The translations under genes and the position numbers were made by a program. This document shows, in pieces, positions 35,601-62,799 of a stretch of 64,000 nucleotides of DNA. Under the pieces are notes generated by a model that did not search any database, was not told where the DNA came from, and worked only from the letters and a program-made list of their open reading frames with translations. Within the stretch, counting starts at the first letter, position 1, and each line of letters starts with the position of its first letter. Source of the stretch: Octopus sinensis (Eukaryota); contig NC_043012.1 in the NCBI RefSeq assembly GCF_006345805.1, positions 7,936,001 through 8,000,000 of the forward strand, in the 5' to 3' direction.

Positions 35601-37968
35601 TTTCCAAGCAGAGGCTATAAGACTGTTTAAATTTAAATACAGCATCTTCTCAGGTCAAAGATTTGAGCAAAGTCAACTCCAACTCTGGGACCAACTTCAT
35701 GCAAGCATGAAGGCACACTGGCAAAATGCTGTTCCTCTAAATGGAAACCTTACTTGTCATTGTGGATTTGTGGCACAAAGCAAAGCAGGCCTTGCTGTCC
35801 ACCCAAGAAAGCACACAGTAAATGATCCACAAGCACTCAAGCAAACTGAGTCCTCAACTTGTTACCTTTGCCAAAAGATTTGCAAGGCACCAGCAGGTCT
35901 TGAGATATTTGTGTCCATAAAACATGATTGATGCTTTATTTTACAGAAATTTCATTTGTCGTTCACGACAAGGGAATCCATCATCACACTCACACGCATA
36001 TATATATAGGGTGGAGGCACAATGGCCCAGTGGCTAGGGCAGCGGATTTGCGGTTTTGATTCCCAGACTGGGCATTGTGAGTGTTTATTGAGTGAAAACA
36101 CCTAAAGCACCATGAGGCTCCGGCAGGGGTTGGTGGCGATCCCTGCTGTACTCTTTCGCCACAACTTTCTTCTGTTGACCTGCTCGCTTAGCCAGCGGGA
36201 TGGCGTCATTTGAAGGCTAAAACAATGTGAAGCGCATTGTGACCAGTGATGTGTAGCAACATCTGATAGCATGGTCAGTTACGGTGACAGTGATGTATAT
36301 AGGAGGTTATGAGAGGCAATGGTGTCAGGTAATGCTGAATAAGTGCCATAGACAGACAATAGTTAACAGGTTCGGTGATTATGTGAATAAGGGGTTCAAT
36401 GTTGGTCATATGTCAGCGTGTGTATATAATTTTTTTTCCATAATGAGATAAAAAACCAAGATTGTAGAACATTTATAGATAGATCTTACAGCTGTTTCCA
36501 GGATATAATAAATATCCTGGAAACAGGATACCTTCTATCTATAAATGTTCTAAAATCTACACAGCCTTGGTTTTTTATCTCATTACAGAAAAAAAAACAT
36601 ATATATATATATATATATATACCTATTTTCTCATGAATATCTTTTATCATTTACTTGTTGCAGTCATTAGACTGCGACCATACTGGAGCACCATCTCGGA
36701 GAATTTTTAGCTGAACAAATCAATCCCATTAGTTAGCACTTTTTAAAGTCTGGTACTTATTCTATTGGTGTTTTTTGCTGAACTGCTAAGTTACAGGGAA
36801 GTAAAAATTGTATCAGGACAATTACCCCTCCCCCATAAGACAATTACCCTCTTTCTAATATATTAAGAAGTCTTAAATGATCATGTGTTGTCCTTGGGGT
36901 TGGGGGTAAATGTCCTAAACCCTTAAAACACCAACACTAGTTGTCAAGCAGTGGTGGAGGACTAACAGACATTCATGCACAGATATACATATATACAATG
37001 GGCTTTTGGGGGTTTCTGTCTCCCTAATCCACAGTCAAGGCTTTGGTTGGCCCAAGTCTACATTTGAAGGCACTTGTCCAAGATGCCATGCAGTTGAAAA
37101 GCAAATTGCTGAAGTTCTTTATGTTGGATTTCCTGTTTCATCTCTCGGTATTTATTCTGACTTCTTGCATTTTGAGATCAAATCCAAGCAAATTTGACTT
37201 TGCCTTTCATCCTCTTGAGGATTGATTGCCAACCACAGTCTGACAGATTGGTGGAACAATGAGTGTGGAGACTAGAAACCTTGTGGGGTTTGTTCCATCT
37301 CCCCATATTTTGAGTCAGATTTTGTGTAAGCGCAGTAAAAACGGTTTTGTTGACCAGCAAGTCCATCACGGTGAGTGAGACAAATTCTTGAAGCAACGGC
37401 CAGCACCGAAAAGATGGAGCTGAGTAGAGACAAAAGAGGGAGAGAGTGTGGGGAGGGGGTTCTTTAGTTGGACAGACATACCATAGGGAACGAATGGAAA
37501 TTTAGTACATCATTATCATTTACTTTCAGCTTATCATGTTGGCATGGGTTGGACAGTTTGACATGTCAAAACAGACAATTGGAGCCTGGTGCAGCTCCTG
37601 ACAAACTCTCCAACCCATGCCAGCATGGAAAACAGGCGTTAAATGACGATGATGATGATGGTGGTTTGTTAGTAGTTTAAGCAAAAATATTGATTCTATT
37701 GATTTCTTATCTTTTATTTGTTTCAGTTATTAGACTGTGGCCATGCTGGGGCATTGCCTTGAAGAAATTTTACTTGAAGGAATCGTCCCCAATACTTATT
37801 TTAAGTCTGATACTTATTCTACTGGTCTCTTTTGCTGAACTGCTATGTTATAGGAACATAAACACACAGACACCAATTGTCAAGCAGTGGTGGGAAAGAA
37901 ACACAGACATACACACATAAAAAAAGGGCTTCTTTCAGTTTCCGTCCACAAAATTTGTAAAATTATGT

Positions 37969-38053
37969 TTCATCTGATGATTATAGTTTTTTTGTAATGG
38001 AGTAAGGTTCTCATTCTTCTACTAAAAAATGTGTAAGAAACAGCTGTAATGAG
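37969..38053 (+). ncRNA. Type I hammerhead ribozyme motif, intact core
   Basis: TTCAT CTGATGA TTATA...TGTAA GAAAC AGCT GTA ATGAG. Stem I TTCAT/ATGAG, core CUGAUGA, long stem II, GAAA, palindromic mini stem III ACAGCUGU, GUA cleavage triplet (cut after 38048). Confidence 0.7.
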
Positions 38054-40510
38054 CTGACAATTATCCATCATCTGTTATTATTTATTTCATCATCATCATC
38101 GTTTAACGTCCACTTTCCATGCTAGCATTGGTTGGATGATTTCACTGAAGACTGGTGAACCAGATGGCTGCACCAGGCTCCAATCTGATCTGACAGAAGG
38201 GCATACAGCTGGATGCTCTTCCTAATGCACATAAAAAGCAGCATTCAAGCGTGGTCGATGCCAGTACCGCCTGACTGGCCCTCATGCTGGTGGCATATGA
38301 AAAGCACCCACTACACTCTCGGAGTGTTTGGTATTAGGAAGGGGATCCAGCTGTAGAAACATTGCCAGATCAGATTGGAGCCTGGTACAGCCTTCTGGCT
38401 TGCTAGTCCTCGTTCAAACCGTCCAACCCATGCCAGCATGGAAAGCAAATGTTAAGCAACGGTGGTGATGATGGATATAGATATATATGTATGTGAATTA
38501 TTTCTTTTTGTGGGGGAACAATGCAACAAAAGCAGCCTTTGAATTTTTTATACAAAGTGTATTCTTACTCAATATCTGCATCTAATTTACAGCTTAATCT
38601 GCTTCAAGTTTCAATGTTCCAAAGTAGAATTATTTCATGTTCTCCCAAGGCTTCTAAGTTCTTATAATGTCAACACAGACACAAATACAATTGCACTTAC
38701 AAGGCATTGGTTAACGCAGGCCTATTAGAGAAGATACTTGCTCAACATGCAGCATGATGTGGTGGTGGGGACACCCCAAATAATGTGGTTGTCAAGCAAA
38801 CATCTAAACTGCACAGCCATTCCTGGGAATAACAAAATTATGACTGATATGTTTTTCAAGACTCACAAAAGCCTTGAAATATGGGGTTTCCAGAGTCTAA
38901 ATATTTTAAATATTAAGGCACAGGAGTGGCTGTGTGGTAAGTAGCTTGCTTATCAACCACATGGTTGCGGGTTCAGTCCCACTGCGTGGCACCTTGGGCA
39001 AGTGTCTTCTACTATAGCCCCGGGCCGACCAATGCCTTGTGAGTGGATTTGGTAGGCGGAAACTGAAAGAAGCCTGTCGTATATATGTATATATATGTAT
39101 ATGTGTATGTGTGTGTCTGTGTTTGTCCCCCTAGCATTGCATGACAACCGATGCTGGTGTTTTTACGTCCCCGTCATTTAGCGGTTCGGCAAAAGTGACC
39201 GATAGAATAAGTACTGGGCTTACAAAGAATAAGCCCCGGGGTCGATTTGCTCGACTAAAGGTGGTGCTCCAGCATGGCCGCAGTCAAATGACTGAAACAA
39301 GTAAAAGAGTAAAAGAGTTCCCCTCATATCAAGATACCCTTTGCAGTATGAAGAGGTACATCGCTTGAAAACCACTTTCCTACTGTTTTACAAAAATGGG
39401 GTGTCATATGGGATAATGTGGTACTACATATACAGTGAAGGGGCGTGGCTTAGTGGCTAGAGGTATTCAGCTCACGACTGTTAGGTTGTGAGTTCAGTTC
39501 CTGGTGATGCATTGCAAGACATTTTATTTCACGTTGCTCCAATCCACTCAAATGGCAAAAATGAGTAACACCTGTAATTCAAAAGACCAACCTTAACACA
39601 TTCTGTATCGTGTTAAAATCTCCCTGAGAACTATGTTAAGGGACTGCATGTCTGTGGAGCACTCATCCATTTGCATGTTAATTTCATGAGTAGACAGTTC
39701 TGTTGGTTGGATCAACTGGAAACCTCGTCATTGTAACTGACAGACTGCTAGTTACCTATATAGTGTTTAACTAGGAGACAGGATGGTCACATGTGGAAAA
39801 CCTTTAATCGTAAGTCAGCCCAATCATGGTTCACTTGGAGGTTAAACAACTGTCTCCAATCCTGTTAGTTTGGGAAAAGAAGTGCTGTGATGCTATGATG
39901 TTGCAAAACCCTTGGTCAATAATGATCAAACATACCTCTGTTCAATGATGTTCCAGATAAGACCATTCTTTGGTCTTCTGACAAGTGTAATTCGAATGAG
40001 ATGTGACTGCTATTTCTAGCAAGCCATCAACCACAAAACGTTTCTACTGCTGTCCCCAGTTTTTTTTTTTTTTTTAAATTTTATATTTTTATTTAGTCAT
40101 AAATAAGGTGAAATCACATGGCCTAGTGGTTAGCATGTTCCTTTCACAATTGTGGAAACAGTTTCGATTTCCAGACTAGGTGGTGTATTTTGTTCTTGAG
40201 AAAATACTTCCTTCTATGCTGCTCCAGTCCACTCAGAAGTAAAGGAGTTCCAGGAAGATCTGGTGAGTTAATCCCTGTGATGGACTACCATCCTATCCAA
40301 GGGGAATGTGATCTTTGTCATTTATACACCATGGAAGCCAAGTAACTGACTGCATGAGTCCTAGGACTTGAAACAGTATTTAATTACATAAATTAGGACA
40401 GCAGCACATAGTTGTGGCTGACGATATAACTATGAAACTAAAAGTGGAACCCACTTGTCAGTCAGGCAGACTGAGCCAGGCACAATAAAACAGCAAGTTG
40501 AGATGTTTAG

Positions 40511-45457: not shown

Positions 45458-46067
45458 TTAATTACATATTTTCTTAGGAGGACTTTCTAATTGCTCACAC
45501 TCCTCTTCTTCATTAGTTCCTTCATTTGAAATGAGGGTAGCGAGTCGTTTATTTACAGGTGGAATGCAGTTTTCATTTGAATCTTCAGTATCAGTCAAAT
45601 CTGGATCGTCCTCTGTCAACTGCACCACGTCTTTCTTATCCTCTTCTGTTTTGATAGCTATAGGCACTGGATCTTCGGAGTCTTCAGTTTCCGTCTTCTC
45701 ACACTTGACTGCATCTGTAGACTCAGCTTTTGCAGAATTGGCGAGTTTCTCGCGATACACGTCTCGTCTGGATTTCTTACGCTTCAACAACATCCTCGGA
45801 CATTTCTCTCTCGGTTTCGTATTTACAGACTTCAGAACGAAAGAGAAGCCGGAGTACTCTGGTATGTCAACATCGAGTAGCTGGCAGACTCCCTTCATCA
45901 CTCTGTCGACATATGCATTGATGCGTAAGTCACAAAGACGATCGAGTGGCGTTGGCTGTAGGTTAACGAGAATGAGTTTACCTCCGTTTTTCTTTGTTAA
46001 AACAGGGATACGTCCACTTGGTTTAATCTGTAAGGAGGTGCCAAGACAAACGCTCAAATCTGCAAGT
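45458..46067 (-). CDS. SIRT6: NAD-dependent deacylase sirtuin-6, coding exon 6 (last)
   Basis: tttcag|A CTT GCA GAT TTG AGC...; LADLSVCLGTSLQIKPSG...LILVNLQPT...DLRINAYVDRVM (sirtuin GTSL and VNLQ motifs), then an acidic tail and TAA at 45458. 610 nt. Confidence 0.95.
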
Positions 46068-48667
46068 CTGAAATAAACGAAAACAATAAGATACTTAAAA
46101 AATAAAAAAGAGAAAAAAAAAAGAATATCTTTAGCACCATTTAAAGGAACTTAGTAAAAGCAAAGAAAAACCCAAAGATTTGATGAAAGGAGAAAATATC
46201 AATCCTTTAGTTTCCACATTTCTACTGAAATACACTGACTTTGTTGCAATTAATTTAGAAAATAACTAAGAATTTAGTAAAATAATTTTACCATCATTAC
46301 CAGGCAAGGTTGGCAACGGCCACGAACGGATGGTGGCACGTAAAAAGCACCATCCATTCGTGGCCGTTGCCAGCCTCGCCTGGCCCCCGTGCCGGTGGCA
46401 CATAAAAACCACCATCCGATCATGGCCGTTTGCCAGACTCATCTGGCACGTAAAAAGCACCCACTACGCTCACGGAGTGGTTGGCGTTAGGAAGGGCATC
46501 CAGCCGTAGAAACATTGCCAGATCAGACTGGACCTGGTGCAGCCTTCTGGCTTCCCAGACCCCAGTTGACTTGTCCAACCCATGCTAGCATGGGAAGCGG
46601 ACGCTAAACGATGATGATGATGATTAAGTTAGTGTTTGCAATGTAAATTAACAGTGAAATTTTTATTCAAGGGTTTAATTTAGATCCCTTTAAACCTGGT
46701 CTCAGGAGGGGAGTATCAAAAGGGTTAAGACAAATATGATGGAAAGACCAGGAAGCTAAATCACATGACTAGGATAATGTACTGCCAATGTAGGTTGGTA
46801 TTAAAAGGGTTAAACTACACAGAGTTAAAAATCACTGAAATAGTAGCACTGTCTGTAAACTCTTCATCATCATCATCATCATTTAGCGTCCACTTTCCAT
46901 GCTAGCATGGGTTGGACGGTTCAACTGGGGTCTGTGAAGCCAGAAGGCTGCACCAGGCCCAGTCTGACATTGCAGTGTTTCTACGGCTGGATGCCCTTCC
47001 TAATGCCAACCACTCCGTGAGTGTCGTGGGTGCTTTTTACGTGCCACCCACACAGGTGCCAGACGGGGCTGGCAAACGGCCACAATTGGATGGTGCTTTT
47101 TACGTGCCACCGGCACGGGGGCCAGGCAAGGCTGGCAACAGCCACTATCGGATGGTGCTTTTTATGTGACACCGGCACGGAGGCCATTCGGGGCGGCGCT
47201 GGCAATGGACACGGTCGGGTGGTGCTTTTTACGTGCCACCGGCATGGGGACCAGGCGAGGCTAGGGTGTTCTGGTCATTTACCAAGAGACTTTTGCTTAC
47301 TTTGCAGAAACCTCCCATCAAAAACACCTTAACCAAAATATTGGTTTCAAATTTTGGTAGAAACTCAGCAAGTTCAGAAGAAGGAGAAGTTAATTAGATC
47401 AACCCCCCAGTGCTCAACTGGTACTTATTTTATCAACCATGAATGGATGAAAGGCAAAGTCAGCCTCAGCAGACTTTTGTCTGTCTTTACACTCTGAGCT
47501 CAAATTCTGCTAAGCATTTTGTCCAACATGCTAACAATTCTGTTAGCTTGCCACCGTCCTTAACCAAAATATTGATTATTTACATTGGTAGAATAAGACT
47601 GGATTTAGGAAGAGTAGTGGAGCTGACACCGATACTTTACTTTTCAATCCTGGAACGATGATTGGCAAAGTTGATCACACTGGAATTTGAAGTCCACAGA
47701 ATATATATTGCAAGACTATATAAAGGTGATGGGGTAGGCTCCACTGGTCAACTGACCATTCATATACGTAGAAACCTGGACATGTTTTTTTTCTTCAATA
47801 AAACAGGAAGTTGCTCTTCTCTCTATGCTACCAATGTTCAACAAAGAAAAAGGCCTCCAGCTTAGGATGATATAGGTAGGCATCAGTGTTGTTAGAATGC
47901 AAACAGCCAGAATAGATGTTCCAAGGAATCTTACCTGATGCTCTTACAGTTCTGTGCTAAACCATTGTCTTTGGATTTATACTTTTTTTAGTGACCCCCC
48001 AAAAGGATAAAAGCAAAGTTGACCAAAATAGGATTTGAACTCAAACACAGAAATTTGGGGCAAATAGCAAGAGAGGTATTTGATCCTCTGTTCTAATGAC
48101 TCTACCAATTTACAGTCTTTGAAATTTATAAGACTCAAACTAAACACTGCCATCAGCAATTTGTGTGAGGAGCACAGAAGACACAAGAGAATGGGGGAGA
48201 GACATCACAGAGTGGGTGATAGGAGGAGGAGGAGACATAACAATTAATCAAAAGAGAGAGAGAGAGAGTATGGAGTGAGTGATGAGAGGAGAATGTATTG
48301 AAATGAGAGAATGGGAAGATGATGAATATCAAAGAGGAAGATCAGAGGCACTTCAGAATAAGTGATGAGTAGAGGAGAGACACAGAAAAGGTGATGGGAG
48401 GAGGAGAGATATTATATGTCCTGTCTTTTACTTGTTCAATCATTGGATTGCAGCCATGATGGGACAACACCTTGAAGAATTTTTAGGTAAATGAATTGAC
48501 TCCAGTACTTTTTTTTTTCCGTTTTTCAAGTTAGATACTTAGTCTAACAATCACTTTTTGCTGAACTGCTAAGCTACAGGGGATGTAAATATAGCAACAC
48601 TGGTTGTCAAGCAGTAGGGGGTACACAAACACACACAAATATATATGTGCGTGCTTGTGTGTGTGTG

Positions 48668-48872: not shown

Positions 48873-48886
48873 CACTATATATATAT

Positions 48887-48933
<47 letters not shown>

Positions 48934-49876: not shown

Positions 49877-51607
49877 CTGAAATAATAATAATAATAATAT
49901 GATTTCTTTTATTAGCTACATGGGACAAAGACATGGAGGACAATATCGAAGGATGAGTTACAGAACACAAAAAAAAAAACAAAAACAAAAAATACAAAAA
50001 CAGGTAGGGTTTACATCGATGAAAGAGAGATACTATCACATTAATGGGTATAAGAGAGGATATATAATAGATATTAGAGAAATAAATAAATAGAATCTCC
50101 AATGGTGGGGCAGTCCACTTTGGGTATTCTGGGGGTAAACACCATGCAAAAACCTCCAGATTACTCTGCTATCCCCAAGGCATGGGAAAGTGCCCTCTTC
50201 CAGTTTCTTTCCTCCTGCTTGGAAAAGCATATTCAGGGTCAGTCAATTTGGTCTCCTTAGTCTTGCCACTGTCAATCACCTTTTCATAAGCATACTAAAT
50301 GGCAGCACCTCCCTCTCTATCCTAACCTTCCTCTTCAAATGATATTTGAAGAAATTGAGGTGGACTTGGCCAGATAGGGAAATGCCTGTCTTCAAACCTT
50401 TCATATCTGTCCACCACATAGCCTCTCTTGCTACAGACACAGTTTCTGATCTTTTGTCTTGGTATAAAAGATGGGCTACAGCAAATATTCTGCTCAATAC
50501 CACAAATTTGCTTGTTAGTCGCTTGACCTCAACCAGTTGAGCATGTCCCTAAGTGGCTGACGATATGTGCATCTCTGATCATGAGCAGACGTAGCAGAGG
50601 AGCATCTTAGCAATGTGTTGAGAGGAATTCTTTGAGATTTGAATAATTCCCACCGTTTTTGTTCATCATCCTTATTCAGGGACCTCTTGAGCTGGATGGG
50701 CTACTGGACCTGAAGAAAATTCTAACCGGACCCCACCTATGAAGTCCCCATGTTGTGTACATATGGTTGTGATGCTTCTGCCTGTTGTAGTCTTATCAGA
50801 TGGGTAGTTATGATGGGTGTATTAGGCTTCGTATATTTGCACCCTAGTGTCACTTTGATAGCATGAGCTGCTCCCATCATCATCATCGTTTAACGTCTGT
50901 TTTCCATGCTAGCATGGGTTGGACGGTTCGACTGGGGAGCCAGAAGGCCTCACCAGGCTCCAGTCTGATCTGGCAGTGTTTCTACAGATGGATGCCCTTC
51001 CTAACGCTAACCACTCCGTGAGTGTAGTGGGTGCTTTTTATGTGCCACCGGCACAGGGGCCAGAGGAGGCTGGTAATGGCCACGATTGGTTGGTACTTTT
51101 TACATGCCACCGGCACAGAAGCCAGTCAAGGCGGTGCTGGCATCAGCCACATTCGGATGGTGCTTTTTTTTATGTGCCACTGGCATGGGAATCACAATCA
51201 CAACCTCCGCTCAACCCTCATCTTGATGTTGATGTACCTGACTCAATAGGTCTCCTCAAGCACAGCAGGTCGCCCTATGATCCAAGGTACTTCTGAATGG
51301 GCTGTGGCCTGCTATGCGAAACTGGTGCAGGATACAGCTGTGAACCCACCCTACCTGCCGGGTCCTCGCAGTCACAGCACATCTCCAGAGGTCTCAGTCC
51401 TTCATCATTGCCTCTGCGAGGCCATACATATATATACATGTGTGTGTATTGTGTCTGTGTTTGTTCTTCCCCACCACCGACGCTTAGAAACGGATATGTG
51501 TGTGTGTGTATATATATATATGTATGCTTTTCAAAATGTGACCTCGTGTGTACCGTTGGCGATTTTTTTCCCCTGTCTTCCCTTCTCTGGATCTTTCCTT
51601 CTCCTAT

Positions 51608-51642
51608 GTTTCCGACGAAGAGCTCCGCTCGAAACGTTAAGC
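51608..51642 (+). ncRNA. Minimal hammerhead-like motif, core variant CCGACGA
   Basis: GTTT CCGACGA A GAGC tcc GCTC GAAAC GT T AAGC inside a ~190-bp insert between (TA)n runs; U4 is replaced by C. Confidence 0.5.
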
Positions 51643-51758
51643 CCTCCTTCTTTCCTGAGCGTTCAATAATACTATATCTGTTCCACGTCCTCACGTTGTT
51701 GTGTTTTTTTGTGCTTTCTCGTTTGGATTAACTATATATATATGTATGTATATATATT

Positions 51759-51803
<45 letters not shown>

Positions 51804-52433
51804 GCAGAAAAATGGTTTTAAATTTCGGCACAAGACCAGCAATTTTAGGGAGAAGGGGCTAGTTGATTAGATCGACCCCAGTTCTTGGAACTGAAGAATG
51901 CCGCTTATATGATGGTGACACTAGTTTATGAGTGCATATCAACTAATGATGTAAACATCACTGACAAAAAAAAAAGTGTTTCTCAAACTAATATATCTTG
52001 TGATATTTGTTCTGCACCTAGTTACATAAGACTCCCTTGCCCCCATTTCACTGCCAAAATACAAAGAACCAGAGACTGACCGTTGGTAACATTCCCCACC
52101 AAAAAACAAAACAAAAAAACCAGTAACCAACAGCACTAAGTCACCGTTTGCCATGAGTGTGTCAAGGGAGATAATCTGCTCAGTCTCATGGTTTTATCTC
52201 AAGCCACCAATGAGGTTATATATCGCTAAGTTTTCTTAAATATATTCTAAATTAATAAAAAATATTATCCATCCCCCCACCAAAGGTCTGTATGTAAGCA
52301 ATATTGAAATCCTATATTTCCTCCTATCCTCATCGATTGTCTGGGTATATAAAATTTTACATTTACACGAAATGTTTAGTATATGATGTTTGTGCATATA
52401 CATTTGTAGCATAGGAGATTGAAATGATAATCT

Positions 52434-52844
52434 GGATCTTTTCGGTTTGAACGGCAGTTTTTTCTAGCGGTGTCATATGAAATTGTCACCCATAATTATG
52501 ACCCTAATATCGAACTATTGCATGTCAATCTGTTTTAGGGTCAGGGTTAGGGGGAAGGGTATTTTTTTTTCTTCACAAATATAAATAAACCCAATCTGTT
52601 TCTTAAACGAGGGACATATTCATACGGCACAGAATGGTATTTACCTCAATACACGTCATTGATTGGTTGAAATAGCAGAAATTGAAGAAAAAAAACAACA
52701 AATATCTTACAAACTATAGAATTTTCTCAATAAAGCCAAGAGAAAAAGATGTTTTATAAACACATTCTACCAGTATGTGAAGTTTAAAATTTTTTAGTTA
52801 TCTAGAAATTATGTTAAAAATTTCCGTTCAAACCCAAAAGATCC
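52434..52844. mobile_element. Second copy of the GGATCTTTTC MITE with 8-bp TSD
   Basis: GATAATCT|GGATCTTTTCGGTTTGAACGG ... CCGTTCAAACCCAAAAGATCC|GATAATCT; the interior is homologous to 21213-21646. Confidence 0.85.
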
Positions 52845-52999
52845 GATAATCTTTATGAAAACGTTGTTTAGCTTTCATAATTTACTACTGTGCTGCAAAT
52901 ATTCCATATCAATTACATTTATTTAAGTTTTGTAATGATACAGAGCTACAACATCCCTTTGAATCTACCTTTAAAAATTGCTCCTCTCTCTCTCTCTTT

Positions 53000-53790
53000 C
53001 TGTTCTTGCTTGATGGGTCTGGGGTCATCCCAGATTAGCAATCTCAGAGGCACCATTGTGCATAGAGCTGATCAGGTTCACCAGTGCCCCCACCCCCACC
53101 CCGCCAATGTTGGCGATCCCATGCCAGCTCTTCTGCATCCTCCAAGGTGATGTTGAGTCTTTGGAGATCTTCTTTAACCATGTCCAGCCACCTGGAGTGG
53201 GGCCTGCGATAGGGATTCTTCCAGCCTGCAGCTGCTGTTGAACAAGACTAAGGCACTGTTACGATGATGTATCTTCAGCTCTTCGTTTGAAATGCAATGG
53301 TACCATCTGATGTTCTCGATGGTCCTCGGGGCTCTGCTATTGAGGTCATTGATCCTCTTTGCCAGGGTCTTTATGAGGTGGGGGGGACATGTTTCTGCTC
53401 CATAGAGGAAAGCTGAGGACCGATGCGTTGTCTTCGGGGAGATAGAACAGTGGCACCAAAGGGGTTTCTATCGGGAGTACATAACATTGGCACCCAGAGC
53501 ACATCTGTGGTTAATCTCTGGGGTCAGGTCTCCATCTTTGGTGAATGTGGTGCCCAGGTAGATGAAGGAGTGGACAAACTCCAAGATGCTGGGGCCAATA
53601 TGCATCACTACCATCATGCATCAGCTTGGTCTTCGCCCAACTCCCCTGAAGGCCATGCTTTGCTGATTTCTCTCGGTATATGGTCAGTGCGTCCCTGAGC
53701 AGGTCAACTGAGTTGCTGAATAGGGTGGCATCATCTGCATACTCTAGATCAGTAAGGAGGTAATTCCCAAATTTATTCACCTTACTTCGA
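53000..53790 (-). mobile_element. Degenerate RTE-type LINE fragment
   Basis: LLTDLEYADDATLFS...LRDALTIY on the minus strand, followed by frameshifted downstream ORF2 sequence. Confidence 0.75.
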
Positions 53791-54009
53791 GCTGTGCGAA
53801 TTATACTGGACTGACTTGGTGCCTCAACTCAAGTACCTAATTCAACTGAATCTGAATTATTTCTTAACTCGCCATACATGTATATGTACATACATACATA
53901 TATATATATATATATAAAATATTATTAGAGACAAAACCACTATTTTGCAAAACAAACAAGGAAAGACTTAATCAATACATAAAATTTTAATAAATAGTCA
54001 AAAAAACCG

Positions 54010-54052
54010 CCACTACAATTGTTTCTTGTCTTGATCGACAATCTTCAGGTGG
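54010..54052 (-). ncRNA. Type I minimal hammerhead ribozyme, intact core, sense to SIRT6 pre-mRNA
   Basis: The reverse complement reads CCAC CUGAAGA UUGUC gaucaa GACAA GAAAC aauu GUA GUGG. Confidence 0.8.
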
Positions 54053-54115
54053 ACTGCCAATAATTCAGTTTCAAATTATGAAGAATACATAATTTGAAAC
54101 TGAATTATTGGAAGT

Positions 54116-54158
54116 CCACCTGAAGATTGTCGATCAAGACAAGAAACAATTGTAGTGG
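54116..54158 (+). ncRNA. Type I minimal hammerhead ribozyme, intact core
   Basis: CCAC CTGAAGA TTGTC gatcaa GACAA GAAAC aatt GTA GTGG. Stem I 4 bp, stem II 5 bp, palindromic stem III ACAATTGT, GUA triplet (cut after 54154). Confidence 0.8.
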
Positions 54159-54244
54159 CGGTTTTTTTGACTATTTATTAAAATTTTATGTATTGATTAA
54201 GTCTTTCCTTGTTTGTTTTGCAAAATAGTGGTTTGTCTCTAATA

Positions 54245-54281
<37 letters not shown>

Positions 54282-54645
54282 AATAATATTAGGGTAATAA
54301 GAATTATAGAAATTATTATTATCAGTGGCCTAGCACAAAAGAAATAGTCAATAGACTATACATTATCCACATAAAAATATCGCTGCTATTTCTAGCAGGT
54401 CAAGTAATTAACTCGCCTGCAAATTACATGCTACATTCTTTATGGAAAGAAAGAAAGATACACTCAACACTGTATTCTTCAATTTACAGAAAGACAAGGT
54501 GATCATGGCGGGAATATCTTTGATTATAGGTCTGCTGAATGAGAACCTAGGACCTACGTTTGGTTAACTCCTGCCCACCCCTGTTGTAATCACACATGCA
54601 CACAAAAGATAACATAATCCAAGAGGGTACAGCAATGACATTTAC

Positions 54646-54731
54646 CTGCAAATTCCTCTCATTTTCATCTGTAAACAATAATCACCTGTATGTTTCAAAC
54701 CCATTGTTGGTACTGACGACTCACTGATGTA
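54646..54731 (-). CDS. SIRT6: SIRT6 coding exon 4
   Basis: ttttcag|TAC ATC AGT...ATT TGC AG|gtaaat; YISESSVPTMGLKHTGDYCLQMKMRGIC(R), containing the second pair of Zn-binding Cys. 86 nt. Confidence 0.93.
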
Positions 54732-54764
54732 CTGAAAAACAATAATAACAACAACAATAACAAT

Positions 54765-55930
54765 CCTTTCTAGTATAGGCGCAAAGCCAGAAATTTGGGG
54801 GAGGGGGATAGACGATTACATTGAACCCCAATACTCGACTGGTACTTAATTTATTGACCCTAAAAGGAAGAAAGGCAAAGTCGACCTTGGCAGAATTTGA
54901 ACTCAGAACATAGCAATGAGCAAAATACCGCTAAGCATTCTGTCCAGCGTACTAACGATTCTGCCAGCTCACTACCTTAACAACAACAACACCAACATCA
55001 CAAATAACAACAACAACAATCCTTTCTACTATAGGCACAAAGCCTGAATTTTGTGGGGAGTGGAGGACAGTTGATCACCTCGGCCCCAGTACTCAACTGG
55101 TACTTAATTTATCAACCCGGAAAGGATAAAAGGCAAAGTTGATCTCGGTGGAATTTGAATTCAGGTGGCACGTAAAAAGCACCATCCGAATCGTGGCCGA
55201 AGCCAGTGCCGCCTCGACTGGCTTCCATGCTGGTGGCACGTAAAATGCACCAATCTGACCATGGCCGACCCCAGCCTCGCCTGGCACCAGTGCAGGTGGC
55301 ACGTAAAAAGCACCCACTACACTCACGGAGTGGTTGGCGTTAGGAAGGGCATCCAGCTGTAGAAACATTGCCAGAAAAGACCGGAGCCTGGTGCAGCCTT
55401 CTAGCTTCCCAGATCCCCGGTCGAACCGTATAACCCATGCTAGCATGGAGAACGGACGTTAAATGATGATGAATGTAGCGGCAGATGAAATACTGCTAAG
55501 CATTTTGCCTGGCATGCTAACGATTCTGCCAGCTCGCTGCCTTGATAATAATAATGATTTCAAATTTTTCCACAAGGGCAGCAAGTTTGGGGGGGAGGGT
55601 ATGAGTCAGTTACATCGACCCCAGTGTTCAACTGGTACTTAATTTATCAACCCCGAAAGGATGAAAGGTAAAAAATCGACCGTGGCAGAATTTGAACCTC
55701 AGAACATAGTGGCAGACGAAATACTGCTAAGCATTTCGTCCAGTGTGCTAACGTTTCTGCCAGCTTGCTGCCTTAATAATAATAATAATAATAATAATAA
55801 CAACAATGAGCTCAAATTTTGCCACAAGGGCAGCCATTTTAGGGGAGGAGATGAGTTGATTACATCAACCCTAGTGTTCAACTGGTACTTATTTTATCGA
55901 CCCTGAACAGATGAAAGGCAAAGTTGACCT
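54765..55930 (-). mobile_element. Cluster of SINE family B copies with a nested family C copy (SIRT6 intron 3)
   Basis: Repeated ACTGGTACTTAATTTATC...GAAAGGATGAAAGGCAAAGT...GAATTTGAACTCAGAA blocks; a family C copy at 55163-55472 interrupts one of them. Confidence 0.8.
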
Positions 55931-56026
55931 CAAACAACAACAACAACAACAATAATAATAAGCATGGCTGCAGTCTAATGACTAAAACAACTAAAAGAAA
56001 TAAAAGAAACAAATAAAAGCTTTTAC

Positions 56027-56154
56027 CTGGATATAACATTTATCGCATTCCTCAACGAACATATTACCATGAAGCTCAGCAAGTCGATTGCGTGGAAACC
56101 CTGAACGTAAATGCAGACCATCAATATTCTGGCTGATCACAAAATGGACAAAGC
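56027..56154 (-). CDS. SIRT6: SIRT6 coding exon 3
   Basis: ttgcag|GC TTT GTC...ATC CAG|gtaaaa; [42 protein letters not shown] (QNIDGLH, catalytic His in ELHGN, CxxC). 128 nt. Confidence 0.97.
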
Positions 56155-56200
56155 CTGCAAAAAAAAGAAAGAAAGAAAATAGAAACAAAAATGTTTTACA

Positions 56201-56674
56201 GTTTTATATTTAAGAGATGAGGAATTATTTGTATTATTTACATTATTTACATTTGACAGATATTTGTCCTCATCTTGTTTATTGTTAACACAATGTTTTG
56301 GCTGATATACCCTCAAGCCTTCTTCAGGTGTCTTGGGGAAATTTCGAACCTGGGTTCTCATTCCTAAGGTATTTTTTGATGTTATTATTATTGTTCAGGT
56401 CACTGCTTGGAATCGAACTTAGAATCTTGGGGTTAGTAGCCTGCGCTCTTAACCACTAAGCCATATGCCTGCAGGCTACTAACCCCAAGATTCCGAGTTC
56501 GATTCCAAGCAGTGACCTGAACAATAATAATAACATCGAAAAATACCTTAGGAATGAGAACCCAAGTTCCAAATTTCCCCAAGACACCTGAAGAATGCTG
56601 GAGGGTATATCAGCCGAAACATTGTGTTAACAACAAACAAGATGAGGAAAAATATCTATTGAATGTAAATAATG
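56201..56674. mobile_element. Fold-back element: tRNA-like head plus hammerhead-like motif, with an inverted partial copy
   Basis: Arms 56241-56444 and 56471-56674. Minus-strand head GGCATATGGCTTAGTGGTTAAGAGCG...AGTTCGATTCC with A and B boxes. Hammerhead-like motifs at 56288-56331 (-) and 56584-56627 (+). Confidence 0.75.
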
Positions 56675-56821
56675 CAAAAATGTTTTACTTAAAACATAAA
56701 GTTTGTCTACTTTATAACTTTTACAATGGTTTTCTCTTTTAATTCTTAATAAACGATTATCATCATCAGCTTATTTTTAAGAATAAATTTATTAAAGGAA
56801 TGGAAAATTCTAAAGCCTTAC

Positions 56822-56929
56822 CAGCTTTCTCAAGAGCCACCAGGGCCATGTGTGTTAGAGTTGGTTTGGCACTTTCGAATGTTATATCAACTTTAGGTTC
56901 CTCTCCACGCATTTCCAGTGTCCAGACTC
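56822..56929 (-). CDS. SIRT6: SIRT6 coding exon 2
   Basis: aaacag|GA GTC TGG ACA...AAA GCT G|gtaagg; (G)[35 protein letters not shown](G). 108 nt, phase 1/1. Confidence 0.96.
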
Positions 56930-59900
56930 CTGTTTCAAGAGAACCAAGAAGTCATTAATTATTGTCATGTACAACATACAACTACCATGACTTACCTTTA
57001 TTCATCACTAACTTAAAAGCTGCATTCCATGTAGACTTTTAAGCTAGCTCCTGTGGGGGGCTAATTGGGCCTGTGGCCCCAAATTAAGGCAACTTAAATA
57101 GCATGACTATAATATGTCTATAATGACTATATGCGCCAGTGGTGTTTGATTAAGGTTAAGAGTGGATGAGAATTAATTCTGCAATGCAATCATTCTATTC
57201 TTCCAATCCCAAGTTGATTTCCAACTGTTGGCCAATTTGCCCCAGAAGTTCTGAGATCGAAGTAAAATTAATGAAGCGAACGTCATTTATCTCCCCCTTG
57301 ATTTCTGACATCATCTGAAAAACACCAACCAAGATGGTGTGAATCAGCCAAGCTTTACCTGCTAGAAATAGCAACCCAAATGCTTTTAAATCAGATCCCA
57401 ATGCTGGATGTTCAAGAACCAAAGGAAAGGCAGATTATCAATCCTGGGATTATCCTGATTCCAAAAAGGTATAATGTGATTATGTAGAGCGAATGTAGAC
57501 TGAGATGCAGGGTCCCAGACGGACAGACAGAATTTCACTTTTATTCTTATAGATTTAATGTCTACCTTCCATGCTGATATGGTTTGGACAGTTTGACAGG
57601 AAACAATGGGTCCCAGGACCACATCGTGCTCAAGTGCCAACTTTAGCATGGTTTTTATGGCTGGACGCCCTTCATAAAGCCAACTACTTTATAGCATGTA
57701 CTGAGTGATTTTTCTGTGGCACCAGCACCAGTGAGGTCACCATGCAGCCTGCAATATTAAGTAAGATTCCCTGTGACTGAGAGGGAGTTGCTCACTTAAC
57801 AGAAGAGAATGAGTAAGTGACTGGGATGGAGCTGGAAACAGATAGAAGTAATGGTGATGAGGCTTCAGGGTGGACGCTCAAGCTATGAAGTAGAGGTCAG
57901 AGGAGTAGAGCAGAAAATGTGGGTGTAAGGGAAAGTAGGTGATGGTTTAGGGAATGAATATAATGATGAACAGATGTAGGAGGGGTAGGTGACAGCTGTA
58001 GAAAATGGGTAGGTTTGAGGAGCAGATGTAGCGAACAGGTTGTTCTGTGAAAGTATTCCTGATAGAACTTTTTCACTTCTATCAGTTGGAATGGTAACTT
58101 TTTCTACAGCATCATAAATTTAAACCAAGAGTTTTGATTCTATCAGCAGCTTTAAATCGTTTATCTTTTCCTTGTTTCAGTCATGAGACGATGGCCATGC
58201 TGGGAGGCACCACCTTCAAGGATTCCAGTACTTTGTTTTTGAACCTGGTGCTATCGGACTCTTTTGCTTAACTGCTAAATTACAGGGATGTAAACACACC
58301 AACACCGGTTGTTAAGTGGTGGTGAGGGACAAACACAGACACAAAGGTACATACATATATACATACGATGGGCTTCTTTCAGTTTCTTATTTCTTTATTG
58401 CCCACAAGGGGCTAAACATAGAGGGAACAAACAAGGACAGACAAAGGGATTAAGTCAATTACATCGACCCAATCGAAAGGATGAAAGTCAACCTCAGTGG
58501 AATTTGAACTCAGAACGTAACAGCAGACGAAATACCGTTAAGCATTTCGCCCAGTGTGCTAACGTTTCTGCCAGCTTTGCGCCTTTCAGTTTCTGCCTAC
58601 CAAATCCATTTACAAAACTTTGGTCAGCCTGAGCCCAAAATAGAAGGTACTGTTCAGTGGATGTGAAACTGAAACCATATGGTAGGGAAGCAAACTTTTT
58701 ACCACACAGTCATGTCTGCACCTTAAATACACTTCATCACTGGACTCTCCATGAAAATGGAACATCACTGTACTGATTACACGGAACAAGTATAGAACGT
58801 AGGGTGATAGCTGGGATGTATAGTGTTGAGATGAACATATGAATACATGAAATGAAGTGTGAACCAAGAGATGTTGCAGTCATTTTGTTGCTAAACCTGT
58901 TTTATATATTATACAAGCAGGATTGATTAGAAACTTTACAGACTGCACTGGGTGCTTTTCGTGGCATTGGCAATAGTGAGATCACCAAGTAATTTATAAG
59001 ACAAGATTCTTCAACCGAAGTAGGTGTGGAATTAAGAGAGGCAGGTTTGTGCTAGGTGTTGAGAAGTTAAAGCATGATAGGAGGACAAGAGAAGGTGTCA
59101 TGCTACAGAAGAGAGATGCACGGCTACTCCAGCAGGAAAGGGAGGAATGAGATGGTGTTGACAGGGCATATCCTGAAGGTACCAGAAAGTGGAGGGTGGC
59201 GAGCTGGCAGAAACGTTAGCACGCCGGGTGAAATGCTTAGTGGTATTTTGTCTGCTGTTATGTTCTGAGTTCAAATTCCGCTGAGGTCGACTTTGCCTTT
59301 CATCCTTTCGGGGTCGATAAATTAAGTACCAGTTATGCACTGGGGTCGATGTAATCGACTTAATTCCTTTGTCTGTCCTTGTTTGTCCCCTCTATGTTTA
59401 GTCCCTTGTGGGCAATAAAGAAAAAAGGAAGTGGATACAAAGAGGATAGAAAAAGAGAGAGTTGGGTGGGTGGGTAAGTTTGTGAGAGTGTGAAAGGAGA
59501 GTGACAGACAAGAGAGGATGTGAGAAGTGAATGCAGTATAGATGGAGGTGCAGGCAATGGTGAACCTTAGTTTGGTGGACTGTAAGGAAAATAGGCGTTA
59601 AGTCAAGGAGGAGGAGGAGGAAGTGATGGGTGGTAATATATAAAAAAAGGGGGGAAGGTAGAAAGTAGCAGTGTAATAAAACCATAGAGGAAAAATAGGA
59701 AAATGAGGTGGTGAATTGTGGGGAGGAGAGAGAGAAGGATGCATAGTGACAGAGATCAGAAGTATATTGGAGTACATAAAAAAGGGGTGTAGCACACTAA
59801 TAGCAGACACAAGAGGGAGTTCAGGGGAAATACAGTGGGGAAGGATGATGATGCGAGTGCAGGAGGGATGGCAAGGTGAGAGGTTCCAAAAAATAGATGC

Positions 59901-60632
59901 CTTTCGGACATGAATGACCACAGGATTGCACCAAGAAAGTTACCCTCCAAGGCACAAGTCCGGGCAAGGTTGTTGATGGAAGACCAGCAGTCGCCCATGC
60001 ATACCAGCCTCCTCTCTCCATGCCACTGATGTTGTCCAAGGGAATGGCAAAGGATGATTCAACTTGGCACCAGTGATGTCACAACTCACTTCTGCAGCTG
60101 AGCAAACTGAAGCAACATGAAATAAAGAACACAACACACAGCCCAGTCTGGAGCTCTAACTCACAACCTCATGATTGTGAGCCCAACACTCTAACCACTG
60201 AGCCATGTGCTTTCACAGTTACAAATAGGGGAGTCATCATCATCATCATCATCATCGTTTAGCGTCTGCTTTCCATGATAGCATGGGTTGGACGGTTCAA
60301 CTGGGGTCTGTGAAGCCAGAAGGCTACACCAGGCCCAGTCTGATCTGGCAGTGTTTCTACGGCTGGATGCCCTTCCTAACGCCAACCACTCCGTGAGTGT
60401 AGTGGGTGCTTTTTACGTGCCACCGGCACAGGTGCCAGACGAGTCTGGCAAACGGCCACGATCGGATGGTGCTTTTTATGTGCCACTGGCACGGGGGCCA
60501 GGCGAGGCTGGCAAACGGCCACAATTGGATGGTGCTTTTTATGTGCCACCGTCACGGGGGCCAAGCAAGGCTGGCAACGGCCACGAAAGGATGGTGCTTT
60601 TTACGTGCCACCGGAGTGCAAAACATATTTAC

Positions 60633-60837
60633 CTTTAGGTCCCCTGAAGTCTGGAATGCCAGCAGATGTACTAATACCGGCACCAGTATGGAATACAACA
60701 TGCTTGCTTTCTCGTATCAACGTGGTAAGTTGTAAGATTTTCTCTTCCACTTCAGCATCGGTATCGAACTTTTCTGGAATTCCACATTTTCCTTTATTCG
60801 CATATTGGGACAGTCCAGCAGCATAATTGACCGACAT
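60633..60837 (-). CDS. SIRT6: SIRT6 coding exon 1
   Basis: [22 protein letters not shown]...[22 protein letters not shown], the SIRT6 N-terminus plus the GAGISTS/IPDFRG motif. Donor AAA G|gtaaat. A likely acceptor (ttgcag) at 60857-60858 lies 19 nt upstream of the ATG. Confidence 0.97.
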
Positions 60838-61893
60838 AGAGAGTTCCTAAGTATTCCTGCAACAGAAACAGTGAATATAAAGATTATGTAGGACAAAAAT
60901 GGTAAAAAAAAAAAAAAAAAAAAAGTAAATAATACTGAATTCCAACATCAACACAAAAAAAAAAAACAAAATTTGCTGGTTTCACATGAAAAGCACCCAG
61001 TACACCCTGTAAAGTGGTTGGCATTAGGAAAAGCATCCACCCATAAAAACCCTGTCAAAATAGAAAATTGGAGCCTGGTGTGGTCCTCGGCCTTACCAGC
61101 TCCTGTCAAACCATCCAAACCCATGCTGGATGTTAAATGATGAATTATGGTTAACTCTTTTTCCCCCCAAGTAATGTCAACTGGCCCTCATATTGCACTG
61201 CTTTTTGGATAGTTAACATAGCTCTCAGCTGGTGTACAGACTTCACATATTTAAGTTTATGTATCACAAGTAGTGAACATTAATATCATTTTATCACTGG
61301 TTTGCTACATTTCCAAAACACACACACACACACATATACATATATATATATTTTTTTTACTACCCACAAGGGGCTAAACATAGAGGGGACAAACAAGGAC
61401 AGACAAAGGGGTTAAGTCGATTACATCAACCCAGTGCGAAACTGGTACTTTATTTATCGATCCCGAGAGGATGAAAGGCAAAGTCGACCTCGGCAGAATT
61501 TGAACTCAGAACGTAACGATAGACGAAATACTGCTAAGCATTTAGCCCGGCGCGCTAACGTTTCTGCCAGCTCGCCGCCTCTATATACATATATATACAT
61601 ATATATAGTGTAGTGGTTACAGTGTTGGGGTTGCAACCATTGAGACTGTGGTTTCAATTACTGAACATGGTGACACATTGTATTCTTGAACAAGTCACTT
61701 CATCCCACATTGCTTCAGCATATCCAGCTGTCGCATCCTTCCAAGTTCAGCTGGATGAAGAGTGGAAAGACCAAAAAGGACTGTTTGCTCATGACTACAA
61801 AGGCATCAGAAAAGAAAAAAAAAATCAGCAAAAGCATGGTACATACAACTAGATCATACTTGCTTGACTGCAAGTAACAGTTACAGTTTTATG

Positions 61894-61935
<42 letters not shown>

Positions 61936-62799
61936 ATAATAATATATATATATATATATATGTATGTGTGTATGTGTATCATCATCATCGTTTAACGTCC
62001 GTTTTCCGCGCTAGCACGGGTTGGACGGTTCGACCGGGGTCTGGGAAGCCAGGGACTGCACCAGGCTCCAGTCTGATCTGGCAGTGTTTCTACAGCTGGA
62101 TGCCCTTCCTAACGCCAACCACTCCGCGAGTGTATAATAATAATAATAATAATATATATATATATATATAAACACACACATAAGCACATATGTGCAAAAC
62201 AAGGTGGAAAAAATAGTACTTGAATACCAAGGGCAGAGTAAAATACTATTTTATTAAAGCCAAATAAATCTTCAGAAACCGTTACTCAAGGTTTCACACA
62301 ATCATTCACTGGACAGTTGTGATAATACAGAGTCTGAATAATCACAACTGTCTGATGGCAGCCACATGAAACTCTGAGTAACAGTTTGTAAGGTCATTTT
62401 TCAGAGACTGGGACTCTGAGCCATATATACACTCCGACACAAATCAGGATCATGACATACAACCACACTGCATCACAATTATTTTTTCTTCAACAGTACT
62501 TGTTCTGTTGAACATTATCCCAAAACTAATCAAAGAAAAAATAAAGGTCCCACAAATTTCAAACGATATCTGGATAAATTTCTTGAAGGCATACTCGACA
62601 AGCCACATCTTAACAAGGCTCTGGGAGCACAAAACTTGACATAAAAATACGACATATAAACCCATGTAGTAGACCTACAAACATGCAATTTTTAGCAAAC
62701 TCTAGCAAGATGAATGACCAGGTGTACAAGGCTCCCTCTTTGATTCCCTAAATTAATATTATATGTGCTGCAAAGGTGTCACACTAATAATGCTGTCTG

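What the first reader, a model, noticed from the sequence alone, without database searches (positions are those of the whole stretch)
36431..62387. Concentration of hammerhead-bearing fold-back retroelements of several unrelated families around SIRT6
Seen: six loci (36.5, 38.0, 51.6, 54.1, 56.4 and 62.3 kb) carry minimal hammerhead motifs with different stems but the same core and tiny, mostly palindromic stem III. Four are in head-to-head inverted repeats, and several sit in (TA)n. Established: Penelope-like elements carry such minimal, dimer-dependent hammerheads in their pLTRs and often leave inverted partial pLTRs. Inference: a diverse, largely unannotated population of non-autonomous Penelope/retrozyme-like elements that seeds long dsRNA in introns of an animal group known for heavy A-to-I editing.
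Basis: partly seen in the sequence, partly recalled or inferred. Interest (0 to 1): 0.75.

Follow-up and report, generated by a model that had tools for sequence, protein, structure and literature searches.

The report
Penelope retrotransposon stumps with hammerhead motifs
The six motifs are short end-pieces of six unrelated families of jumping genes, five traced to protein-coding Penelope-type parents; they are about as dense beside SIRT6 as on the neighbouring DNA and likely cannot cut the host RNA, but one piece lacks its parent's intron, so it was likely copied from spliced messenger RNA.

Summary
The six loci are real but are not a SIRT6-specific cluster, and they are not retrozymes. Each is a short 3'-end stump of a different high-copy family. 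Family copies carry a minimal type I hammerhead; in the window only 38.0 and 54.1 kb keep an intact core. 51.6 kb has a family-wide U4C change, 56.4 and 62.3 kb are decayed, and 36.5 kb has lost CUGANGA. Five of six families run co-linearly into Penelope-like RT/GIY-YIG frames (three Hydra-type, one Poseidon-type, one Neptune-type). The adjacent 80 kb holds 5 copies of the same families against 6 in the window. The fold-backs bury their own ribozyme and are predicted to give intronic dsRNA, as neighbouring SINE pairs do; editing was not tested. Most informative: the 54.1 kb palindrome is two spliced copies of the parent's leader (1449 spliced against 627 unspliced exact junction matches), with a tail on exactly one arm in 24 of 25 pairs. 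This fits copying of sense mRNA from two internal start sites. The 56.4 kb family has a tRNA-like head right after the ORF stop. The scan noted both features before on other DNA of this genome.

The parts
36305..36592 (.). Family D stump (Hydra-type PLE), head-to-head. The minus arm carries the optional tail (about 36305-36430); the inversion turns inside hammerhead stem II.
   Evidence: parent GIY-YIG frame in L392, L393, L395, L398, L401, L402, L405
36482..36515 (-). 3' half only of the hammerhead (stem II strand, GAAA, palindromic stem III, GUA, stem I strand); CUGANGA is missing, so this is not a ribozyme
37954..38085 (+). Family E stump (Hydra-type PLE), single arm, next to a SINE
   Evidence: parent GIY-YIG frame in L217, L220
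37969..38053 (+). Minimal type I hammerhead motif with intact core, long loop II and 8-nt palindromic stem III
51531..51732 (+). Family B stump (Neptune-type PLE), single arm in (TA)n, antisense to SIRT6 in the intron 49877-54644
   Evidence: parent endonuclease frame co-linear in L527, L535
51608..51642 (+). Minimal hammerhead motif with family-wide U4C core change and ACGT stem III
53917..54250 (.). Family A (young Hydra-type PLE) palindrome in (TA)n: two spliced leader copies head-to-head, arms 53934-54080 and 54088-54234, 99% complementary, in a SIRT6 intron
54106..54107 (+). Exon-exon junction where the parent holds a GT-AG intron of about 1.8 kb; mirrored at 54062/54061 on the minus arm
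54116..54158 (+). Intact minimal hammerhead motif, right arm
54010..54052 (-). Intact minimal hammerhead motif, left arm; sense to SIRT6 but predicted to be buried in the hairpin
56206..56678 (.). Family C (Poseidon-type PLE) head-to-head stump, arms 56237-56444 and 56471-56678, tail on the left arm only; fills most of the 669-nt SIRT6 intron 56152-56820
   Evidence: parent RT and GIY-YIG frame in L243, L257, L262, L264, L266, L267
56398..56469 (-). tRNA-like head with A-box and B-box-like motifs; in parent copies it follows the ORF stop codon directly
   Evidence: not called by ARAGORN; box consensus recalled
56583..56628 (+). Decayed minimal hammerhead (stem III no longer palindromic); the mirror copy at 56287-56332 on the minus strand has also lost G12
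62178..62387 (.). Family F old head-to-head stump with two decayed hammerhead cores (62306-62312 minus, 62352-62358 plus); no parent ORF found
45458..60857 (-). SIRT6 coding span; exons 60857-60632, 56928-56821, 56151-56027, 54731-54645, about 49876-49797 and 46067-45465 or beyond; the first, non-coding exon was not located

Best explanation
The six loci are short, 5'-truncated terminal-repeat stumps of six unrelated high-copy retroelement families, five of which run into protein-coding Penelope-like parents, and they are likely passive insertions that do not cut the SIRT6 RNA. Shown: each family's copies carry a minimal type I hammerhead near a fixed 3' end; the parents are arranged as ORF, 3' UTR, hammerhead-bearing pseudo-LTR, next ORF; head-to-head pairs carry the optional tail on one arm and never on both; the 54.1 kb arms lack the parent's GT-AG intron and stop at a shared 5' point. 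Inferred: the element's GIY-YIG endonuclease cuts AT-rich DNA and both ends prime reverse transcription on the element's RNA at two internal sites just past the hammerhead (pLTR end and tail end). When the template is the spliced mRNA, only its short leader lies upstream of those sites, so the product is a hammerhead-bearing stump; two such cDNAs joined at their 5' ends give the palindrome. Long, intron-holding copies would come from unspliced read-through RNA of tandem arrays. In the host pre-mRNA the palindromes are predicted to fold into long hairpins that bury the ribozyme and could be ADAR substrates as a by-product.
For: Descriptor hits far above shuffles. Family motif tables. Parent frames: A, tandem units of about 7.4 kb with acceptor+HHR, end, tail, ATG, RT, EN in order; B; C; D; E. 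Clade motifs (against section 11 of PMC8557442). Exact junction counts 1449 spliced and 627 unspliced, controls 0 and 0. 227 spliced arms reach the A of TCACTT with a non-template base before it, against 24 that continue four bases upstream. Tail on exactly one arm in 24 of 25 family A pairs and 19 of 24 family C pairs, never on both. Two internal RT start sites and extension of both strands are shown in vitro for an anole PLE (PMC11167929, parts 1-2 of 4). Folding gives P 0.000 for hammerhead stem I in the 54.1 kb hairpin, while two isolated copies cofold as a double hammerhead at -24.0 kcal/mol against -8.2 for one. Flanking density is similar to the window's.
Against: Family F was not linked to any ORF. 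Splicing was shown only for family A, from DNA alone; no RNA evidence for the element's spliced mRNA was obtained. The G before the start point (66 of the first 100 listed arms, my tally) may be a cap trace, but 4 of 7 such cases in held loci can equally come from the other arm. The window's own 54.1 kb pair has no tail on either arm. The region is richer in these families than 200 kb sampled from the seven largest contigs (3 copies; P 0.0005 at that rate), although the families were chosen from the window. Pfam did not recognise the family A, B or D frames; they were assigned by motifs and by pairwise or database homology.
Confidence: 0.85

Rival explanations
1. The stumps are non-autonomous retrozyme-like or SINE-like elements that spread from their own short RNAs using Penelope enzymes in trans. 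This is most plausible for family C (tRNA-like Pol III head), for the 190-nt form of family B and for unlinked family F.
For: 10 of 30 3'-anchored family C copies have the A-box as their most upstream marker and only 3 of 30 extend past the head. Family B copies pile up at one 5' point. No parent was found for F. Retrozymes are proposed to derive from PLE pLTRs (bioRxiv 10.64898/2026.07.22.740005, part 1 of 5).
Against: B and C sequences are co-linear with RT/EN frames in other copies. None of the six window loci is a tandem monomer array. 17 of 30 family C copies start inside or after the head. No short subfamily with its own diagnostic changes was shown.
Confidence: 0.2
2. Head-to-head arms arise by self-priming (snap-back) at small palindromes, on an antisense template, as proposed for rotifer PLEs.
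For: Family C inversions often turn at a small hairpin at the tRNA head, and family D inversions turn inside stem II. Proposed in PMC3846280 (passages).
Against: Family A arms are spliced, which needs a sense transcript. The arms differ at the 3' end by the tail in 24 of 25 pairs. Some pairs have untemplated spacers between the arms.
Confidence: 0.15
3. The hairpins and ribozymes are co-opted regulators of SIRT6, for example editing-controlled cleavage or splicing switches, and were retained there by selection.
For: Two near-perfect hairpins lie in SIRT6 introns; one fills most of a 669-nt intron and ends 54 nt before the acceptor. Octopus shows very high hyper-editing (PMC5625713, passages).
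Against: Of the SIRT6-sense motifs only one has an intact core, and it is buried. Family A is young (97-99% identity among top copies) with over a thousand junction matches. Similar density lies outside the gene. Ordinary SINE fold-backs sit alongside.
Confidence: 0.05
4. The motifs are chance matches in AT-rich repeat DNA.
For: No Rfam hammerhead hit; three of six window copies fail the descriptor.
Against: Shuffles give 0.01 strict hits. The genome-wide core pattern gives 21,903 matches against 2,154 for the reversed control. Six unrelated stem sets close round the same core.
Confidence: 0.01

Closest known systems
[quoted passage not shown]
   Same: Short stem I, palindromic stem III, an extra base after A9 in families B, C and D, many unrelated families per genome, mostly single truncated copies, some pairs on opposite strands, and an intron ending near helix I (D. 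virilis).
   Different: Octopus-type host not covered in the parts read; families B, D and F commonly carry U4C; family E has a very long loop II; intron-less genomic copies are not described in the parts read.
Hydra clade of C-terminal EN+ PLEs (Craig et al. 2021, PMC8557442; section 11 and passages read)
   Same: Family A has an RxKWK motif, DKT, the CxCX5C linker, CxxC before the conserved E and CxH after the N; D and E have the linker and CxH; (TA)n targets; inverted 5' copy; tail on one end.
   Different: Family A units are about 7.4 kb with a 1.8-kb intron, against under 3 kb described; no tree was built here.
Poseidon PLE of Anolis (PAc; Frangieh et al. 2024, PMC11167929; parts 1-2 of 4 read)
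   Same: Hammerhead at the pLTR-ORF boundary, two 3' end points separated by a tail, AT-rich targets; family C has DKG and a linker-less GIY-YIG end.
   Different: Family C carries a tRNA-like head between the ORF stop and the hammerhead; none is described for PAc in the parts read.
Penelope of Drosophila virilis (Schostak et al. 2008, PMC2377424, passages) and rotifer Penelopes (Arkhipova et al. 2013, PMC3846280, passages)
   Same: Internal promoter with Inr-like start and a 5' intron in the pLTR; inverted pLTR with optional tail.
   Different: Those passages stress intron retention and suggest an antisense or unspliced template; here spliced junction matches outnumber unspliced ones 1449 to 627.
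Metazoan non-LTR retrozymes (PMC7229834, passages; bioRxiv 10.64898/2026.07.22.740005, part 1 of 5)
   Same: Type I hammerhead in short, repeated, non-coding DNA.
   Different: Retrozymes are tandem 170-400-nt monomers without a coding parent; the six loci are single or inverted stumps, five of them with coding parents.

Membership tests
Minimal type I hammerhead (PLE type) | Core CUGANGA...GAAA with stems I and II and an NUH site | tested here: met
   Met at 38.0 kb and on both arms at 54.1 kb, and in family copies of A, C, D, E, F
Minimal type I hammerhead (PLE type) | Intact core in the window copies at 36.5, 51.6, 56.4 and 62.3 kb | tested here: not met
   Core missing (36.5), U4C (51.6), stem III decayed and G12 lost on one arm (56.4), both cores changed (62.3):
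Minimal type I hammerhead (PLE type) | Palindromic stem III that allows a dimer fold | tested here: met
   Family motifs; the cofold of two family A motifs gives the double-hammerhead structure
Minimal type I hammerhead (PLE type) | Self-cleavage | not testable with these tools
   Needs in vitro transcription; U4C is reported to lower activity considerably in vitro (PMC3088659, passage)
EN+ Penelope-like elements | Single ORF with RT and C-terminal GIY-YIG, co-linear with the hammerhead end (families A, B, C, D, E) | tested here: met
   A; B; C; D; E. For D and E only the endonuclease end was reached.
EN+ Penelope-like elements | Coding parent for family F | tested here: inconclusive
   No shared upstream sequence or ORF in 64 fetched loci; few of them extend past the hammerhead
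EN+ Penelope-like elements | Tandem pLTR-ORF-pLTR units, 5' truncation, inverted 5' copy, tail on one end | tested here: met
Hydra clade | RWK, DKT, CxCX5C linker, CxxC and CxH around the EN end | tested here: met
   All in family A; linker and CxH in D and E
Hydra clade | Placement in the clade by RT phylogeny | not tested
   No reference proteins were held; clade names rest on motifs
Penelope/Poseidon (family C) and Neptune (family B) | DKG with no linker (C); CX2-5CxxC linker before GIY-YIG (B) | tested here: met
   C; B. Motif-level only, from the passages
Non-LTR retrozymes | Tandem 170-400-nt monomers, each with a hammerhead | tested here: not met
   None of the six loci is a tandem array
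Non-LTR retrozymes | No coding capacity in the family | tested here: not met
   Five of six families have coding parents
Non-LTR retrozymes | Circular RNA intermediates | not testable with these tools
   No suitable raw reads were offered
tRNA-derived SINE (family C short copies) | Pol III head at the 5' end of a non-coding element with its own lineage | tested here: inconclusive
   Head present and a frequent 5' limit (10 of 30), but also embedded in ORF-bearing copies

The most novel reading that the evidence does not exclude
Octopus-type genomes hold thousands of head-to-head Penelope stumps that are twin cDNAs of the element's spliced, capped mRNA leader, primed from the two ends of one DNA cut at two internal start sites. 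That would overturn the antisense-template explanation of PLE inversions and intron retention, make short hammerhead palindromes an obligatory by-product of PLE replication, and make PLEs a standing source of perfect intronic dsRNA for ADAR; one such family may use a captured tRNA promoter.
Probability: 0.55. Interest if true: 0.62.

Novelty: new member of a known kind. Interest (0 to 1): 0.36.

Why it matters
As posed, the finding is what a Penelope-rich animal genome looks like: the core pattern alone has about 20,000 matches above control in this assembly, so several motifs near one gene need no special cause. The value lies in the insertion anatomy. How Penelope-like elements keep their introns and make head-to-head inversions is open in the passages read (PMC8557442, PMC3846280). 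A young family with over a thousand spliced-junction matches and a strict one-arm tail rule gives a natural record against which the two-start-site mechanism seen in vitro can be tested. It also gives exact, short, perfect hairpins in known introns, suitable for a direct editing test.

Tried and rejected
Rfam scan: no hammerhead family among 114 matches, only miRNA-hairpin and low-complexity noise. ARAGORN: no tRNA in the window. A YRKPT frame beside a family C copy (L081) proved to be chance. Pfam missed the family A, B and D frames, and PDB sequence search missed the family A RT. I first called families A, D and E Neptune-like; the motif test moved them to Hydra. A parent for family F was sought by two DNA searches and one acceptor-like pattern (4 matches), without an ORF. 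Candidate exons near 37.2 and 40.4 kb gave no Pfam or homologue hit, so a second host gene for the 36.5 and 38.0 kb loci is not shown. Sequencing runs: no RNA holder listed; only contigs guessed to be RNA were offered. They show the spliced SIRT6 mRNA but cannot show editing or cleavage ends. Splicing of the family A intron in RNA stays untested. The background sample is small: 200 kb from contigs C1-C7 and 80 kb of flank. Apparent compensatory changes in family F stem II were not counted as covariation, because double CpG decay gives the same pattern. Lunse, Weinberg and Breaker (RNA Biol, doi 10.1080/15476286.2016.1251002) is not held and may cover cephalopod motifs. Paper searches for prior description were made; in their listings and in the passages read I found no report of spliced PLE leader copies or of a tRNA head in a coding PLE. 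No supplements were opened, and Repbase and Dfam entries could not be checked.
Full report
Observation. The six places hold hammerhead-derived sequence. A descriptor requiring CUGANGA, stem II, GAAA, a palindromic stem III, an NUH site and stem I found 3 hits at 2 loci (37969-38053 plus; 54116-54158 plus and 54052-54010 minus) against a mean of 0.01 in 100 local dinucleotide shuffles. With one core mismatch it found 5 against 0.24, adding 51608-51642 and one chance-like hit at 15.2 kb. The 36.5, 56.4 and 62.3 kb copies failed it. Rfam gave no hammerhead among 114 matches. Four loci are head-to-head inverted repeats: 147-nt arms at 99% (54.1 kb), 208-nt arms at 93% (56.4 kb) and shorter, decayed arms at 36.5 and 62.3 kb.

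Host. The gene is SIRT6 on the minus strand (best PDB hits all sirtuin-6, E 5e-26). Contigs of two runs guessed to be RNA join its exons: 60857-60632, 56928-56821, 56151-56027, 54731-54645, about 49876-49797 and 46067-45465. So 51.6 and 54.1 kb lie in one intron and 56.4 kb fills most of a 669-nt intron. 62.3 kb is upstream of the first coding exon; the non-coding first exon was not located. 36.5 and 38.0 kb lie more than 7 kb beyond the stop codon, and no second host gene was shown. The genome is 2.72 Gb; an octopus host is inferred from a named homologue.

Families. Each locus belongs to its own repeat family, with 582 (A, 54.1), 3648 (B, 51.6), 2713 (C, 56.4), 1828 (D, 36.5), 615 (E, 38.0) and 1836 (F, 62.3) first-look candidates, which are not copy numbers. 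Family copies show a full minimal hammerhead with unrelated stems around one core. In held loci the core read CTGANGA in 70 of 70 motif rows for A and 41 of 48 for C. For B it read CCGANGA in 36 of 50. D gave 14 CTGANGA and 15 CCGANGA among 52 rows and E gave 20 CTGANGA among 42, both totals including spurious regex matches; F is too decayed to tally well. CCA variants beside CCG and CTG suggest that C4 is ancestral in B, D and F and decays through CpG loss (inference). U4C is reported to lower activity considerably in vitro (PMC3088659, passage). The 36.5 kb copy lost CUGANGA because its inversion turns in stem II.

Parents. Walking upstream linked five of six families to Penelope-like frames. 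A: tandem units of about 7.4 kb in the order acceptor, hammerhead, end, tail, ATG, RT (YRDD), GIY-YIG, 3' UTR, donor; its endonuclease matches that of E (E 4e-14), and a database homologue carries Pfam GIY-YIG. C: an RT and GIY-YIG frame whose stop codon directly precedes the tRNA-like head. D and E: GIY-YIG ends upstream on the same strand. B: two copies co-linear from a GIY-YIG end to the hammerhead about 1.1 kb downstream, and an RT frame in a third copy that overlaps them. By the motif list of Craig et al. (PMC8557442, section 11) A, D and E are Hydra-type, C is Poseidon-type and B has the Neptune-type linker; no tree was built. F was not linked.

The spliced palindrome. Long family A copies hold a GT-AG intron of about 1.8 kb that ends 13 bases before the core; both window arms have the exact exon-exon join. 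Exact patterns gave 1449 spliced and 627 unspliced junctions, with reversed controls 0 and 0. Of 30 loci picked by the 3' end alone, 18 were spliced, 7 held the intron and 5 were too short or variant to be called by the script (one is the window and two overlap). Of the first 100 listed spliced matches, 60 form 30 head-to-head pairs within 55 bases. 227 spliced arms reach the A of an Inr-like TCACTT with a non-template base before it, and only 24 continue four bases upstream. That base is G in 66, T in 20 and A in 14 of the first 100 (my tally); a cap trace is possible, but 4 of 7 G cases in held loci are ambiguous. The tail lay on exactly one arm in 24 of 25 family A pairs and 19 of 24 family C pairs, never on both; the window's A pair has none, and its C and D pairs have one.

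Mechanism. For the anole PLE, both target strands are cut and extended, and reverse transcription starts at two internal sites that define the tail; hammerhead cleavage was not needed for insertion in vitro (PMC11167929, parts 1-2 of 4). I infer that on a spliced mRNA such starts can only copy the short leader, that two such cDNAs joined at their 5' ends give the palindrome, and that intron-holding copies come from unspliced read-through of tandem arrays. The alternative in print, self-priming on an antisense template (PMC3846280, passages), does not explain spliced arms, although small hairpins at the turning points of C and D suggest they help to join the arms. For family C, 10 of 30 3'-anchored copies have the A-box as their most upstream marker, 17 start later and 3 extend past the head; a Pol III start there is plausible and untested.

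Effect on the host. In the SIRT6-sense RNA the 54.1 and 56.4 kb elements fold into hairpins with 166 and 200 long-range pairs at p>0.9, and hammerhead stem I has probability 0.000 at 54.1 kb. The SIRT6-sense motifs at 56.4 and 62.3 kb have broken cores, and 51.6 kb is antisense. Two free family A motifs cofold as a double hammerhead (-24.0 against -8.2 kcal/mol for one), but a second accessible sense copy is absent here. Cleavage of the host RNA is therefore unlikely. Within 44443-60857 the two PLE palindromes cover 830 bases, and other inverted pairs cover 778 (gap up to 2 kb) or 2732 (any gap) of 16,415. SINE fold-backs without hammerheads lie at 42.1, 43.1 and 46.4 kb. Editing was not tested; palindromic repeats in frog and Penelope in lizard are reported as heavily edited, and octopus as rich in dsRNA (PMC5625713, passages).

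Concentration. CTGANGA-N(8-36)-GAAACGTH has 21,903 matches against 2,154 for the control. The six families gave 6 copies in the window, 5 in 80 kb of flank and 3 in 200 kb from contigs C1-C7; the strict descriptor gave 3 hits (2 loci), 2 and 0. P for 6 or more in 64 kb is 0.21 at the flank rate and 0.0005 at the distant rate; for the 26-kb span, chosen after the fact, it is 0.006 at the flank rate. The families were chosen from the window, which inflates its count. The fair reading is a regionally rich chromosome segment, not a SIRT6 feature; the samples are small.

Known and new. Cervera and de la Pena (PMC4209133, parts 1-2 of 4) already describe massive, heterogeneous minimal hammerheads as truncated PLE ends, some in opposite-strand pairs. 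Active Penelope families are catalogued in Octopus vulgaris without mention of ribozymes (PMC13282606, part 1 of 3 and passages). Retrozymes (PMC7229834, passages) do not fit. The finding is thus a new member of a known kind. My searches showed no paper on spliced PLE leader copies or tRNA-headed coding PLEs, but Lunse et al. could not be read and repeat databases were not available. Earlier notes of this scan report both features on other DNA of this genome; I had recorded both before looking, and took the Hydra label, the cap idea and the twin-cDNA idea from them as leads, which I then tested as described.

Verdict. Observation partly confirmed, interpretation partly supported, interest 0.36.

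Noticed in passing
window 42140-42408, 43078-43259, 46444-47046, 38087-38471: Head-to-head or near-adjacent inverted copies of ordinary SINE-type repeats without hammerheads (128-nt arms at 95%, 80-nt arms at 98%, 185-nt arms at 91%, 109-nt arms at 78%). The first two sit in TA-rich flanks and resemble the Penelope insertion footprint.
   Followed up: partly
L129:2834-3133 (minus) and downstream: A further PLE family with a GIY-YIG end and its own hammerhead about 1 kb downstream, adjacent to a family E fold-back.
   Followed up: no
G000:C1, e.g. 257510-258667, 399015-400170, 4791456-4792605: Hammerhead cores repeating every 555-560 bases in tandem and inverted arrays; these look like true retrozymes, a different family from the six here.
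   Followed up: no
L302:6569-8362, L308:5988-7400: The family A ORF has a long asparagine-rich stretch between RT and endonuclease, as described for rotifer Penelopes (PMC3846280 passage).
   Followed up: no
L305:2700-5680, L307: The family A donor region is duplicated in about 0.8-1 kb internal repeats, giving up to four alternative donors before one acceptor.
   Followed up: no
families B, D, F (held loci): CCG, CTG and CCA variants at core positions 3-5 suggest an ancestral U4C core that CpG decay converts into a canonical-looking one.
   Followed up: partly
window 24578-25493 and 27417-28111: A 29-nt minisatellite of about 25 copies, and a 333-nt tandem duplication of a tRNA-headed repeat in (TA)n at 97% identity.
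   Followed up: no
window 45506-45507: Two adjacent T>C differences (A>G on the SIRT6 strand) in one contig of one run, in the last coding exon; could be editing or an allele.
   Followed up: no
window 7852-8454, 37178-37501, 40430-40747 (minus): Open frames that look like exons of a second minus-strand gene, with no Pfam hit; the one searched had no homologue.
   Followed up: partly
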